Below are positions 2,379 to 5,865 of a DNA stretch of 64,000 nt, one piece after another. The notes beneath the pieces were generated by a model that made no database searches, was not told the origin of the DNA, and saw only the letters and a list, made by a program, of their open reading frames with translations. The translations under genes were made by a program, and so were the position numbers. How positions within the stretch are numbered: position 1 is the first letter of the stretch; each line of letters opens with the position of its first letter. Source of the stretch: the human T2T-CHM13v2.0 reference genome, Homo sapiens; assembly GCF_009914755.1 (NCBI RefSeq), contig NC_060934.1. One strand, 5' to 3'.

Positions 2379-5300
2379 TTTATTTTATTCATTTATTTAT
2401 TTTTATTTTTATTTTTTTGAGACAGAGTTTCGCTCAGCTGCCCAGGCTGGAGTGCAGTGGCGCGATCTTGCCTCATGGCAACCACCATCTCCTGGGTTCA
2501 AGCGATTCTCCTCTCTCAGCCTCCCAAGTAGCTGGGATTACAGGCACCCGCTATCATGCCCAGCTAGTTTTTGTATTTTAGTAGAGATGGGGTTTCATCA
2601 TGTTGGCCAGGCTGGTCTTGAACTCCTGACCTCAGGTGATCCACCTGCCTCGGCCTCCCAAAGTGCTAGGATTACAGGTGTGAGCCACCACACCCAGCAT
2701 TTCATATTTCATTTCTTTCATTTCAAGATGGAAACTCACTCTATCACCCAGGCTGGAGTATGCCACTGCACCTGACATTTCATTATTCATTTCATTTCAT
2801 TATTTCATTTCTTCATTTCATTGCACCCAGCATTTCATTATTCATTTCATTATTTCATTTCTTCATTTAGTTTCATTTCATTTCGAGATGGAAACTCGCT
2901 CAATCGCCCAGGCTGGAGTGCACCACCACACCCGGCATTTCATTATTCATTTACTTCATTTCATTTCGAGACAAGAGACTTGCTCTATTGCCCAAGCTGG
3001 AGTGCGCCACCGCACCTGGCATTTCATTATTCATTTCATCATTTCATTTTATTTCATTTAGAGATGAAGACTCACTCTACCGCGCAAGCTGGAGTGCACC
3101 ACCACACCCAGCATTTCATTATTCATTTCATTATTTCATTTCATCATGTCATGTCATGTCATGTCATGCCATGTCATTTCATTTCGAGACAGAGACTCGC
3201 TCTATCACCCAGGCTGGAGTGCGCCACTGCATCTGGCATTTCATTATTCATTTATTTCATTTCATTTCACCCAGCATTTCATTATTCATTTCATCATTTC
3301 ATTTCATTTCGTTTCATTTCCAGATGAAGACTTGCTCTATTGCCCAGGCTGGAGTGCGCCACCGCACCCGGCATTTCATTATTCCATTTTATCATTTAGT
3401 TTCATTTATTTCATTTCATATTTCATCTCATTTCATTTCATTTCGATGGAGACTTGCTCCATTACCCAGGCTGGAGTGCGCCACCACACCCAGCATTTCA
3501 TTATTCATTTCATTTCACCCGGCATTTCGTATTTCATTTCATCATTTCATTTCTCACTTCATTTCATTTCATTTGTTTCATTTCATTTCGAGACAGAGAC
3601 TCGCTCTATCGCCCAGTCTGGAGTGCACCACCACACCCGGCATTTCATTATTATTTCATTTTTTCATTTCATCTATTTCATTTCATTTTTCAATTTCATG
3701 ACGTAGACTCGCTCTAACACCCAGGCTGGAGTGCACCCAGCATTTCATTATTCATTTCATATTTCATTTCCCATTTCATTTCATGACAGAGACTCACTCT
3801 ATCACCCAGGCTGGAGTGCGCCACCCACATTTCATTATTAATTTCATTATTTCATTTCATCATGTCATGTCATTTCATTCTGAGATGGAGACTCGTTCTA
3901 TTGCCCAGGCTGGAGTGCAGTGGTGTGATCTCTGCTCCCCGCAACCTCTACCTCCTGGGTACAAGCGATTCTCCTCTCTCAGCCTCCCGAGTAGCTGGGA
4001 TTACAGGCACCCGCTATCATGCCCGGCTAGTTTTTGTATTTTAGTAGAGACAGGGTTTCACCATGTTGGCCAGGCTGATCTTGAACTCCTGACCTCAAGT
4101 GATCCGCCCACCTAGGCCTCCCAAAGTGCTAGGATTACAAGCGTGAGCCACTGCACCCAGCATTTCATATTCCATTTCATATTTATTTCATCATTTCATC
4201 TCCTTCATTTCATTTCAAAACGGAGTCTCACTCTATCACCCAGGCTGGAGTGCATCACCACACCCAGCATTTCATTATTCATTTCATTTCATTATTTCTT
4301 CATTTCATTTCATTTCACCTGGCATTTCATTATTCATTATTTCATTTCTTCATTTCATTTCATCCCATTTGAGATAGAGACTCGCTCTATCACCCAGGCT
4401 GGAGTGTGCCACTGCACCTGGCATTTCATTATTCATTGCATTATTTCATCATTTCATTTATTTCATTTTTTCATTTCATTTCATTTCACCCGGCATTTCA
4501 TTATTCATTTCATTATTTCATTTCATCATTTCATTTCATTTCATTTTGAGACGGAGACTCCCTCTATTGCCCAGGCTGGAGTGCGCCACTGCACCCAGAA
4601 TTTCATTATTCATTTCATTATTTCATTTCATCATTTCATTTGATCATTTCATTTCATTTCAAGACAGAGACTCGCTCTATCACCCAGGCTGGACTGCGCC
4701 ACCACACCTGGCATTTCATTATTCATTTCACCCAGCATTTCATATTTCATCTCATCATTTCTCATTTCATTTATTTCATTTCATTTCAAGACGGAGACGC
4801 GCTCTATCACCCAGGCTGGAGTGCGCCACCACACCTGGCATTTCATATTTCTTCATTTCATTTATTCCATTCCCATATTCCCATTCCCATTCAATTTCAA
4901 TCCATTTCATGACAGAGACTTGCTGCATTGCCCAGGCTGGAGTGCACCACACGCATTTCATTATTCATTTCATTATTTCATTTCACCATGTCATGTCATG
5001 TCATGTCATGTCATTTCGAGCCAGAGGCTTGTTCTAACACCCAGGCTGGAGTGCAGTGGCGCAATCCCTGCTCGCTGCAACCTCTGCCTCCTGGGTTCAA
5101 GCGATTCTCCTCTCTCAGCCTCCCAAGTAGCTGGGATTACAGGCACCCGCTATCATGCCTGGCTAGTTTTTGTATTTTAGTAGAGATGGGGTTTCATCAT
5201 GTTGGCCAGGCTGGTCTTGAACTCCTGACCTCAGGTGATCCACCCTCCTCAGCCTCCCAAAGTGCTAGGATTACAGGCGTGAGCCACCGCACCCAGTATT

Positions 5301-5865
5301 TCGTATTTCATTTCATTTCATATTTAATTTTGTTTCATTATTTCATCATTTCATTTCAAGACGGAGTCTCACTCTATCACTCAAGCTGGAGTGCATCACC
5401 GCACCCAGAATTTTATTATTCATTTCAATATTTCATTTATTTCTTCATTTCATTTCATTTCATTTCACCCGGCATTTCATTGTTCATTATTTCATTTCAT
5501 CCCATTTCATCTCATGTCATCTCATTTCATTTCGAGACGGAGACTTGCTCTATTGCCCAGGCTGGAGTGCACCACTGCACCTGGCATTTCATTATTCATT
5601 TCATCATTTCATTTCATTTCACCTGGCAATTCATTATTCATTTTATTATTTCATTTCATTTATTTCATTTATTCTCTTCATTTCATTCCATTTCATTTCG
5701 AGACAGAGACTTGCTCTATTGCCCAGGCTGGAGTGTGCCACCACACCCGGCATTTCATTATTCATTTCATCATGTTATGTCATGTCACGTCATTTCATTC
5801 TGAGACAGACTCGCTCTATCGCCCAGGCTGGAATTCAGTGGCGCGATCTCTGCTCACTGCAACCT
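2379..5865 (-). repeat. Composite tandem array: mini-Alu (~50 bp) + (ATTTC)n spacers with three full Alu copies and one partial copy
   Basis: About 19 copies of GAGAC/TGGAGACTCGCTCTATCACCCAGGCTGGAGTGCGCCACCACACCCGGC separated by degenerate CATTT repeats; full Alus at 2419-2698, 3882-4161, 5018-5297; partial at 5802-5865. Confidence 0.95.

What the first reader, a model, noticed from the sequence alone, without database searches (positions are those of the whole stretch)
2379..5865. Composite satellite built from collapsed 'mini-Alus' and variable (ATTTC)n spacers
Seen: about 19 copies of a conserved ~50-bp unit, starting near 2725, 2885, 2968, 3061, 3186, 3321, 3445, 3590, 3700, 3785, 4217, 4371, 4548, 4661, 4788, 4911, 5358, 5534 and 5700. 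The spacers are ~30-125 bp of degenerate CATTT and differ in length and sequence, giving a repeat-spacer layout. Each unit is the antisense Alu 3' end (GAGACGGAG.CTCGCTCT.TC.CCCAGGCTGGAGTGC) fused directly to the antisense Alu 5' end (GCCACCACACCCGGC), so ~230 internal bases are missing. The join lies where GAGTGC (right arm) resembles GTGAGC (left arm). Inference: one microhomology-mediated internal deletion made the mini-Alu, which then amplified in tandem with its tail-derived pentamer repeat. This would be a SINE being converted into a new satellite/VNTR. Standard annotation would likely split it into Alu fragments plus simple repeat and miss the unit.
Basis: partly seen in the sequence, partly recalled or inferred. 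Interest (0 to 1): 0.85.

Follow-up and report, generated by a model that had tools for sequence, protein, structure and literature searches.

The report
Alu-derived composite minisatellite, chr10 duplications
A 3.5-kb stretch of human chromosome 10 is a real tandem array built from one Alu element cut down to a 52-base stub and repeated with its ATTTC-rich tail, an ordinary though neatly layered example of how jumping-gene copies turn into minisatellites.

Summary
Each is the last 37 nt of an antisense Alu joined to its first 15 nt, and all share one join. The spacers are degenerate (CATTT)n.

- Three full-length Alus and one 64-nt truncated Alu divide the array into three higher-order blocks.
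- Eight 'micro' remnants (8 nt of the Alu 5' end) share a second common join.
- The internal full Alus are mosaics.
- Two paralogous arrays lie elsewhere on chr10, with 21 and 3 minis.

Six CpG sites, including one created by the join, occur as CG, TG and CA in different units. The amplification therefore predates CpG decay and is old. The paralogues differ by in-register unit gains or losses and by one 2.6-kb Alu-Alu deletion, so the array grows and shrinks by unequal homologous exchange.

The join is found only at these three duplicated loci, which rules out retrotransposition. The claimed microhomology is weak (GTG, offset by one base). Pure pentamer runs reach only 4 units.

Alu-derived minisatellites and TE/simple-repeat composites are known classes. 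This is a new member of a known kind, most likely neutral, and of low interest.

The parts
2379..2418 (+). T-rich (TTTAT-like) tail of the leftmost antisense Alu (A1)
   Evidence: TRF periods 4-6, 14
2419..2698 (-). Full-length Alu A1, the left boundary of the array. Its first 74 nt (read on the + strand) are private; the rest is shared with F2 and F3.
2725..2776 (-). mini-Alu 1
2824..2831 (-). micro remnant (CACCCAGC) joined directly to the pentamer repeat
2885..2936 (-). mini-Alu 2
2968..3020 (-). mini-Alu 3
3061..3112 (-). mini-Alu 4
3145..3182 (+). (CATGT)n variant run inside a spacer
3186..3237 (-). mini-Alu 5
3268..3275 (-). micro remnant
3321..3372 (-). mini-Alu 6
3445..3494 (-). mini-Alu 7
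3516..3523 (-). micro remnant
3590..3641 (-). mini-Alu 8 (private CCAGTCTGG change; duplicated in the 50.81-Mb paralogue)
3698..3741 (-). mini-Alu 9, a variant with 8 nt more missing from the right arm
3783..3828 (-). mini-Alu 10, a variant with 6 nt more missing from the right arm
3882..4161 (-). Full-length Alu F2, which opens block B; its head is mini-type and its body is shared with A1 and F3
4217..4268 (-). mini-Alu 11 (subtype with GAGTCTCAC and GCATCACC, the first mini after a full Alu)
4316..4323 (-). micro remnant
4371..4422 (-). mini-Alu 12
4487..4494 (-). micro remnant
4548..4599 (-). mini-Alu 13
4661..4712 (-). mini-Alu 14
4729..4736 (-). micro remnant
4788..4839 (-). mini-Alu 15 (corresponds to two units in the 50.81-Mb paralogue: the left arm of one and the right arm of the next)
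4909..4954 (-). mini-Alu 16, a variant with 6 nt more missing from the right arm
4987..5011 (+). (CATGT)5 run just before F3
5018..5297 (-). Full-length Alu F3, which opens block C
5358..5409 (-). mini-Alu 17 (same subtype as mini 11)
5466..5473 (-). micro remnant
5534..5585 (-). mini-Alu 18
5620..5627 (-). micro remnant
5700..5751 (-). mini-Alu 19
5802..5865 (-). Truncated Alu A2t (last 64 nt of an Alu), the right boundary of the array, fused at 5865/5866 to an oppositely oriented Alu
5866..6098 (+). Sense-oriented Alu lacking its 5' end, with a poly-A at 6084-6098. It is not part of the repeat but forms its right edge.

Best explanation
This is a neutral, old, Alu-derived composite minisatellite.

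Proposed history (inferred steps are marked):
1. Antisense Alus lay head to tail, separated by a tail-position A-rich repeat that had drifted to (AAATG)n. On the + strand this reads (CATTT)n.
2. One illegitimate event joined nt 37 from the Alu 3' end to the last 15 nt of the Alu 5' end, removing 228 nt.
3. The resulting 52-nt stub, the conserved 18-nt spacer head (ATTTCATTATTCATTTCA) and a variable pentamer tract were then multiplied by in-register unequal homologous exchange or slippage. The Alu stubs served as the homology.
4. A second single join (pentamer | CACCYRGC) made the 'micro' remnant. It spread together with the minis.
5. Later exchanges between full Alus duplicated whole blocks (full Alu - mini - micro - mini - micro - mini ...).
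6. Segmental duplication then copied the finished array to three chr10 sites. Since then it has changed by two unit-level gains or losses and one 2.6-kb Alu x Alu deletion.

Shown: one join per tier, mosaic full Alus, amplification before CpG decay, in-register recombinant units, and restriction to three paralogous loci.

Inferred: the order of the early steps, the tail origin of the pentamer, and neutrality.
For: One join:
- All 43 units from the three arrays align with the same break.
- All 8 window micro remnants have the 8-nt CACCYRGC placed directly after the pentamer repeat.

One lineage:
- 42 of 43 minis, together with F2, F3 and A2t, carry A at the CT?T site. None of 21 scorable other Alus in the window has A there (17 have G); 5 of the 26 were unscorable.
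- 17 of 19 window minis carry A at the GAG?CT site. None of 16 scorable other Alus has A there (15 have T); 10 of the 26 were unscorable.

Amplified early:
- Six CpG sites in the unit, including the CpG made by the join, are found as CG, TG and CA in different window units. At the join the counts are 8/3/8. At CT[CG]CTC they are 7/6/5, with one unit other.

Unequal exchange:
- The 50.81-Mb paralogue has 21 minis against 19 in the window.
- Its extra unit in block A has the left arm of window unit 3590 (private CCAGTCTGG) and the right arm of window unit 3445.
- Window unit 4788 equals the left arm of one paralogue unit plus the right arm of the next.
- The 46.874-Mb paralogue has an A1-type Alu followed by the F3-type flank and only block C. 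That is what an A1 x F3 recombination deletion would leave.

Mosaic full Alus:
- A1 versus F3 differ at 22 of 74 head positions and 8 of 206 body positions (Fisher p = 1.4e-8).
- A1 versus F2 differ at 19/74 and 16/206 (p = 1.7e-4).
- A1 has CA and F3 TG (F2 TA) at a site that is CG, TG or CA in the window's other Alus.

Blocks:
- The start of block B and block C are collinear (full Alu, mini, micro, mini, micro, mini) at 90.6% identity, gaps excluded.

Not a mobile element:
- 32 of 37 join matches lie at three paralogous loci.
- Four of the other 5 were inspected and all join to the middle of an Alu instead.

Deletion route:
- Solitary collapsed Alus (3' end joined to the true 5' end, with different joins and unique flanks) occur at 3 of 14 other loci inspected.

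Background:
- Pentamer repeats of this motif are known to sit in Alu poly-A tails (PMC8773600, passages read).
Against: - The join has no exact microhomology, so the mechanism of the founding event is open.
- Deletion and duplication-breakpoint origins predict the same sequence, and I could not separate them.
- The F heads carry non-A1 states a few bases beyond the present end of A2t. So A2t cannot be the direct source of the F heads; a longer Alu of that lineage must once have existed.
- F2 and F3 also differ more in head than in body (15/74 versus 15/206, p = 0.004). The heads have a more tangled history than a single crossover, probably exchange with minis.
- The block alignments involve repetitive DNA and many gap columns (94). 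The lenient self-BLAST gave only 61-77% identity over long spans. The higher-order structure is therefore loose.
- Neutrality is assumed from free CpG decay. No expression, chromatin or population data were available.
Confidence: 0.8

Rival explanations
1. The mini-Alu join is not a collapsed Alu. It is the breakpoint of a tandem duplication of the inter-Alu segment: the last 15 nt of the upstream Alu, the tail repeat, and the first 37 nt (on the + strand) of the downstream Alu. One out-of-register exchange between two neighbouring direct Alus would then create both the join and the first repeat. The same pair exchanging in register would create the mosaic full Alus.
For: - The array is bounded by a full Alu on the left (A1) and an Alu on the right (A2t).
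- Every interior element has a non-A1 head and an Alu 5' end followed by the same flank. None of the 43 minis or the 4 internal full Alus carries the A1-type head.
- The internal full Alus are head/body mosaics, as expected for exchange between two Alus.
- The precursor layout (Alu, tail repeat, Alu) is seen elsewhere, for example at the chr5 locus L011.
- This route needs one step fewer than duplicate-then-delete.
Against: - It predicts the same sequence as the deletion model, so nothing here discriminates between them.
- The only independent examples of this kind of join found elsewhere are solitary, with unique flanks. They are deletions, not duplications (3 of 14 loci inspected).
- A2t now ends at 64 nt, and the F heads extend beyond that with non-A1 states. 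The simple two-Alu starting state needs an extra assumption.
Confidence: 0.35
2. The 52-nt unit is a small retrotransposing SINE derivative that inserted repeatedly into the A-rich tails of its own earlier copies. Each insertion would bring a new tail, which would explain the variable spacers.
For: - Each unit is followed, in the Alu's own orientation, by an A-rich (AAATG)n tract of variable length.
- A-rich tails are favoured L1-endonuclease targets (established knowledge).
Against: - The join occurs only at three loci that are segmental-duplication paralogues, with homologous flanks on both sides. There are no dispersed copies.
- The first 18 nt of each spacer are conserved between units. 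They are therefore part of the copied DNA unit and not a fresh tail.
- Recombinant in-register units and collinear blocks point to DNA-level exchange.
- The unit keeps only 15 nt of the Alu 5' end, so it lacks most of the internal Pol III promoter (established knowledge, not tested here).
Confidence: 0.02
3. The units are independent 5'- or internally truncated Alu insertions that happened to cluster in a pentamer microsatellite.
For: Alus do insert into A/T-rich repeats and into one another's tails (established knowledge).
Against: - The join position is identical in all 43 units, and the units share private substitutions absent from the window's 26 other Alus.
- The three full Alus share a body that differs at only 8-16 of 206 sites.
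Confidence: 0.01
4. The array is a functional element, for example a regulatory VNTR or a source of repeat RNA acting on TIMM23, TIMM23B or PARGP1, and is maintained by selection.
For: - It lies inside transcribed gene spans (hub table).
- Three copies have survived.
- The ATTTC motif is pathogenic when long and pure at other Alu tails (PMC8773600, passages read).
Against: - Units average 79.5% pairwise identity, with free CpG decay at every CpG site.
- One paralogue lost two of its three blocks.
- The longest pure (CATTT)n run is 4 units.
- No functional element is listed in the hub table.
- On my reading of the orientations, the host transcripts would carry the complementary GAAAU-type strand and not AUUUC (inference from the hub table).
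Confidence: 0.05

Closest known systems
Alu-derived minisatellites (Jurka & Gentles 2006, Gene 365:21; Ahmed & Liang 2012, PMC3389668)
   Same: - A fragment of an Alu is repeated in tandem in situ, and the units resemble one another more than anything else in the genome.
- Growth is by local duplication, not transposition.
- Short repeats at the break are invoked for the origin.
- Ahmed & Liang describe Alu-derived tandem repeats with 15 or more units that expanded locally (passages read). PMC9659126 quotes 2,663 Alu-associated minisatellites (passage read).
   Different: - Here the unit is not one contiguous Alu piece. It spans a join of the two extreme ends of the Alu plus the tail microsatellite.
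- There are three nested size classes (280, 52 and 8 nt) and a block structure.
- The mean unit number reported for AluS-derived repeats is 2.3; this array has 19-21.
- I could not read Jurka & Gentles (not held). What I say of it comes from the citing sentence in PMC3389668.
Composite repeats of the T2T-CHM13 annotation (Hoyt et al., preprint 10.1101/2021.07.12.451456)
   Same: [quoted passage not shown]
   Different: - Their 19 composites are kilobase-scale units forming macrosatellites, some with genes. This array is 3.5 kb in total with units of about 85-180 nt.
- The preprint text does not mention chr10 or PARG (0 occurrences).
Alu poly-A-tail pentanucleotide repeats (FAME, SCA37, CANVAS loci; PMC8773600)
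   Same: An ATTTC-type pentamer sits at the tail position of an old Alu lying antisense on the strand read here (passages read).
   Different: - Those are long, pure, unstable microsatellites at a single Alu.
- Here the tracts are short (at most 4 pure units), heavily interrupted and embedded in a minisatellite.
- I found no sign of an expandable pure tract in any of the three copies.
Alu recombination-mediated deletion and Alu-Alu unequal exchange (established knowledge; named from memory, no paper read here)
   Same: - The 46.874-Mb paralogue looks like an A1 x F3 homologous deletion of about 2.6 kb.
- The internal full Alus are head/body mosaics.
   Different: Here the exchanges occur inside one array and have both built it and trimmed it.
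SVA composite retrotransposon (Alu-like region plus VNTR)
   Same: Antisense Alu fragments are associated with a variable tandem repeat (established knowledge; mentioned in PMC3389668).
   Different: SVA is mobile and dispersed, and its VNTR is not made of Alu ends. This unit is confined to three paralogous sites.

Membership tests
Alu-derived minisatellite | The repeat unit is demonstrably Alu sequence | tested here: met
   The left arm (37 nt) and right arm (15 nt) align to the two ends of the local full-length Alus A1, F2 and F3. The right arm is followed by the same flank as the full Alus' 5' ends.
Alu-derived minisatellite | Head-to-tail tandem arrangement with at least 2 units of 10-100+ nt | tested here: met
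   There are 19 units, all in one orientation, within 3.0 kb. TRF reports periods of 84-269 at 71-91% matches.
Alu-derived minisatellite | Units arose by local duplication of one founder and not by separate insertions | tested here: met
   One join is shared by all 43 units. Private substitutions are absent from the window's 26 other Alus. The join is confined to three paralogous loci.
Alu-derived minisatellite | Short direct repeats or microhomology at the founding break (as attributed to Jurka & Gentles) | tested here: inconclusive
   Only GTG is shared, one base off the break. For the micro join, a 2-nt CA could be shared.
Composite tandem repeat (T2T-CHM13 sense) | [quoted passage not shown] | tested here: met
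   A block consists of a full Alu, minis, micros and the (CATTT)n and (CATGT)n repeats. Three blocks are present, and the start of B is collinear with C at 90.6%.
Composite tandem repeat (T2T-CHM13 sense) | Listed in the published composite track or Dfam | not testable with these tools
   No Dfam, Repbase or RepeatMasker library is available, and the preprint's supplements are closed. The main text has no mention of chr10.
   The array is at most 3.7 kb at three paralogous sites. Mean unit identity is 79.5% (range 58-95%), so there is little homogenisation.
Expandable Alu-tail pentanucleotide microsatellite (FAME/SCA37 type) | A long uninterrupted pentamer tract | tested here: not met
   The longest pure (CATTT)n run is 4 units in the window and in the 50.81-Mb copy, and 3 in the 46.874-Mb copy.
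Mobile SINE derivative | Dispersed copies at non-paralogous sites | tested here: not met
   32 of 37 join matches lie at the three paralogous loci. The other 5 are singletons, and the 4 of them inspected have a different kind of join.

The most novel reading that the evidence does not exclude
The locus may be a rare fossil series that records, in one place, each step of a SINE turning into a minisatellite: full Alu, then a 52-nt stub, then an 8-nt remnant. On this reading the amplified entity is really the inter-Alu tail repeat, and the Alu ends act only as recombination handles. If so, the array should still vary in copy number among people. Sitting in inverted and direct copies within the rearrangement-prone 10q11.22-q11.23 duplications, inside the TIMM23 and PARGP1 gene spans, it could serve as a marker for, or contribute to, exchanges between those duplications.
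Probability: 0.15. Interest if true: 0.4.

Novelty: new member of a known kind. Interest (0 to 1): 0.22.

Why it matters
It matters modestly. The array is a clean worked example of how an Alu and its tail microsatellite become a minisatellite. It has a datable order of events: amplification before CpG decay, then block duplication, then segmental duplication, then unit gains and losses and an Alu-Alu deletion. It also shows why such arrays are fragmented by repeat maskers and tandem-repeat finders, which can hide structural variation in long-read comparisons of the 10q11.22-q11.23 duplications. I see no evidence of function or of an expansion-prone pure ATTTC tract.

Tried and rejected
- Retrotransposition of the mini unit was rejected. 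The join is confined to three paralogous loci.
- Independent insertions were rejected because of the shared join and private substitutions.
- Origin of the right arm from the middle of the Alu, which carries a similar motif, was considered. The 5 outside hits and 11 of 14 loci are of that kind. It was rejected for the array for two reasons. The units show CG/TG/CA at the CAC[CG]CAC site, and they are followed by the same ATTTCAT flank as the full Alus' true 5' ends. In addition, the middle region of the local Alus is heavily altered.
- The short 46.874-Mb copy as the ancestral state was rejected. Its single Alu is A1-type up to its last bases and is then followed by the F3-type flank. The F heads cannot be derived from A1, from the minis or from the 64-nt A2t.
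- My first assumption, that the 50.81-Mb copy sits in the PARG-homologous part, was wrong. Window positions up to 9093 are an inverted copy of another segment, and PARG-side collinearity starts only at about 9348.
- A lenient self-BLAST for higher-order repeats gave long 61-77% alignments of little use. Targeted global alignments were used instead.
- The chr5 hit (L011) is only two ordinary Alus separated by a (TTTA)n tail.
- Literature: 'mini-Alu' returned 4 papers (3 listed), none about such a unit. 'PARG + VNTR + intron' returned 12 papers (10 listed), none relevant by title or abstract. 'TIMM23 + VNTR' returned 0 papers.
- Jurka & Gentles 2006 is not held.
- The Alu subfamily was not assigned, because no reference library was available and I did not use a consensus from memory.
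Full report
**Observation**

I read window 2200-6100 and scanned the whole window for the Alu 3'-end core, allowing up to 3 mismatches. Of 49 hits, 19 are followed at once by the Alu 5'-end arm instead of the Alu body.

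Each unit is 52 nt. It consists of 37 nt of the antisense Alu 3' end (GAGAC...GGAGTGC) and 15 nt of the antisense 5' end (GCCACC...GGC). The local full Alus are 280 nt, so 228 nt are missing.

Tandem Repeats Finder gives 96 overlapping rows with periods of 5-269 and no dominant period.

**What else is in the array**

- Three full-length Alus are present: A1 at 2419-2698, F2 at 3882-4161 and F3 at 5018-5297.
- A truncated Alu, A2t (5802-5865), is fused at 5865/5866 to an oppositely oriented Alu that lacks its own 5' end. Unique sequence follows that Alu's poly-A.
- Eight 'micro' remnants keep only the last 8 nt of the Alu 5' end (CACCYRGC). This sits directly after a pentamer and is followed by the same conserved spacer head, ATTTCATTATTC.
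- (CATGT)n runs precede F2 and F3. A degenerate run of the same kind precedes A2t, and another lies at 3145-3182.

With F for a full Alu, M for a mini and m for a micro remnant, the element order is:

F M m M M M M m M M m M M' M'' | F M m M m M M m M M'' | F M m M m M | A2t

The start of block B aligns collinearly with the whole of block C at 90.6% identity, gaps excluded. There are 94 gap columns. A lenient self-BLAST was uninformative.

**One founder**

I aligned 43 units: 19 from the window, 21 from the 50.81-Mb copy and 3 from the 46.874-Mb copy. All break at the same place. Three of the 19 window units have a further 6-8-nt loss in the right arm.

I used the window's 26 other Alus as the outside reference.

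| Site | Array elements | Other Alus in the window |
|---|---|---|
| CT?T | A in 42 of 43 minis and in F2, F3 and A2t; not in A1 | 17 G, 0 A among 21 scorable |
| GAG?CT | A in 17 of 19 window minis | 15 T, 0 A among 16 scorable |

The two minis that keep T at GAG?CT (4217 and 5358) are each the first unit after a full Alu. This again shows the block homology.

**Right arm**

A similar motif exists in the middle of Alus, and the stray genome hits are joins to that middle. This applies to the 4 inspected of 5, and to 11 of 14.

In the array, the arm is the true 5' end for two reasons. It is followed by the same ATTTCAT flank as the 5' ends of A1, F2 and F3. It also shows CG, TG and CA states at CAC[CG]CAC.

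**Age**

Six CpG sites in the unit occur as CG, TG and CA in different units. One of them is the CpG created by the join itself. At the join, the window counts are 8 CG, 3 TG and 8 CA. The copies were therefore made while these sites were still CpG and then decayed separately.

- Mean pairwise identity of window units is 79.5%, range 58-95%, over 171 pairs.
- Orthologous window and 50.81-Mb units differ at 17 of 1135 positions, or 1.5%.

**Mosaic full Alus**

| Pair | Head differences | Body differences | Fisher p |
|---|---|---|---|
| A1 vs F3 | 22 of 74 | 8 of 206 | 1.4e-8 |
| A1 vs F2 | 19 of 74 | 16 of 206 | 1.7e-4 |
| F2 vs F3 | 15 of 74 | 15 of 206 | 0.004 |

At one site just past the end of A2t, A1 has CA, F3 has TG and F2 has TA. 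The window's other Alus show CG, TG or CA there. So the heads of F2 and F3 come neither from A1 nor from the present 64-nt A2t. A longer Alu of the mini-type lineage must once have existed.

**Paralogues and dynamics**

The join pattern gives 37 genome matches at up to 1 mismatch, against 0 for the reversed control. Fifteen are in the window, 14 at chr10:50.8128-50.8162 Mb (inverted) and 3 at chr10:46.8744-46.8749 Mb (inverted).

Substitution divergence in the flanks:

| Pair | Divergence |
|---|---|
| Window vs 50.81 Mb | 0.6-0.8% |
| Window vs 46.874 Mb | 1.0-2.1% |
| 50.81 Mb vs 46.874 Mb | 1.2-2.4% |

The 46.874-Mb copy is therefore the outgroup.

The 50.81-Mb copy has one extra [M m] in block A and one extra M in block B. 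Both differences are in-register recombinants.

The 46.874-Mb copy has an A1-type Alu that switches to the F3-type flank within about 6 nt of the Alu end. After that come only the three block-C minis. I read this as an A1 x F3 deletion of blocks A and B.

**Where the array sits**

Window positions up to 9093 are an inverted copy of the segments at 50.81 and 46.87 Mb. Collinearity with the PARG-side locus, in the same orientation, starts only at about 9348. The array is therefore not in PARG-derived DNA.

By the hub table's coordinates, the 46.874-Mb copy lies inside the TIMM23 span. The 50.81-Mb copy is its positional counterpart at a constant offset of about 3.938 Mb. I presume that this is TIMM23B, from memory and unchecked.

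**Mechanism**

A single illegitimate join made the stub. In the local Alus the breaks read GAGTGC|AGTGG and GCGTGA|GCCACC. Only GTG is shared, one base off the break, so the microhomology claim is weak.

The same join could be an internal deletion or the breakpoint of a tandem duplication between two neighbouring Alus.

- For deletion: solitary collapsed Alus with other joins and unique flanks exist at 3 of 14 other loci inspected. Two further chrX hits look alike from the matched string but were not inspected.
- For duplication: no interior element has the A1 head, and this route needs fewer steps.

I put deletion near 50% and duplication near 35%. All later growth and loss is by in-register unequal exchange or slippage, and this part is shown by the recombinant units.

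**Known context**

- Alu-derived minisatellites are a described class (PMC3389668, passages read; PMC9659126, passages read). Jurka & Gentles 2006 was not held.
- The T2T 'composite' definition fits in kind but not in scale.
- Pentamers of the ATTTC type in old Alu tails are well known from the FAME and SCA37 loci (PMC8773600, passages read). Here the longest pure run is 4 units.
- Searches for 'mini-Alu', 'PARG + VNTR + intron' and 'TIMM23 + VNTR' found nothing about this array.
- Dfam and Repbase could not be consulted.

**Verdict**

This is a new member of a known kind, most likely neutral.

Noticed in passing
window 9093-9348: A duplication boundary lies here. Window positions up to 9093 are an inverted copy (99.3%) of chr10:50.8096-50.811 Mb. 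Positions from 9348 on are a direct copy (99.0%) of chr10:50.695 Mb onward. The roughly 255 nt in between match an inverted piece about 3 kb upstream in the second locus. So the PARGP1 transcript span crosses two different duplicons.
   Followed up: partly
window 5865/5866: An antisense Alu cut at 64 nt is fused directly to a sense Alu that lacks its 5' end. This inverted Alu-Alu junction is identical in all three paralogues. No remainder of either Alu follows the sense Alu's poly-A (6084-6098).
   Followed up: partly
G000 chr5:79669673-79669710 (L043), chr12:57873541-57873576 (L064), chr12:111307055-111307085 (L065): These are solitary 'collapsed' Alus whose 3' end is joined to their true 5' end. 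Each has a different join and unique flanks. Two more candidates on chrX (16287636 and 151995202) were not inspected. Internal collapse between the two Alu ends seems to recur.
   Followed up: partly
G000 chr13:43823418, chr19:42572311, chr1:235719226, chr9:5884487 and 10 further loci (the chr13 site appears in both lists): Many Alus have lost the distal part of the right monomer through a join between the 3'-end GGAGTG region and the similar GCCACCAC motif in the middle of the element. This applies to 11 of 14 loci and to 4 of 4 inspected.
   Followed up: no
L010 (chr10:46872000-46878000), array at about 46874412-46874899: The copy inside the TIMM23 span has only one block (one full Alu, three minis, A2t). 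Its first micro remnant is not recognisable; a 121-nt spacer stands where the other copies have spacer, micro, spacer.
   Followed up: partly
L011 (chr5:139896000-139897200): Two antisense Alus lie in tandem, separated by a (TTTA)n tail repeat. This is the kind of layout proposed as the precursor of the array.
   Followed up: no
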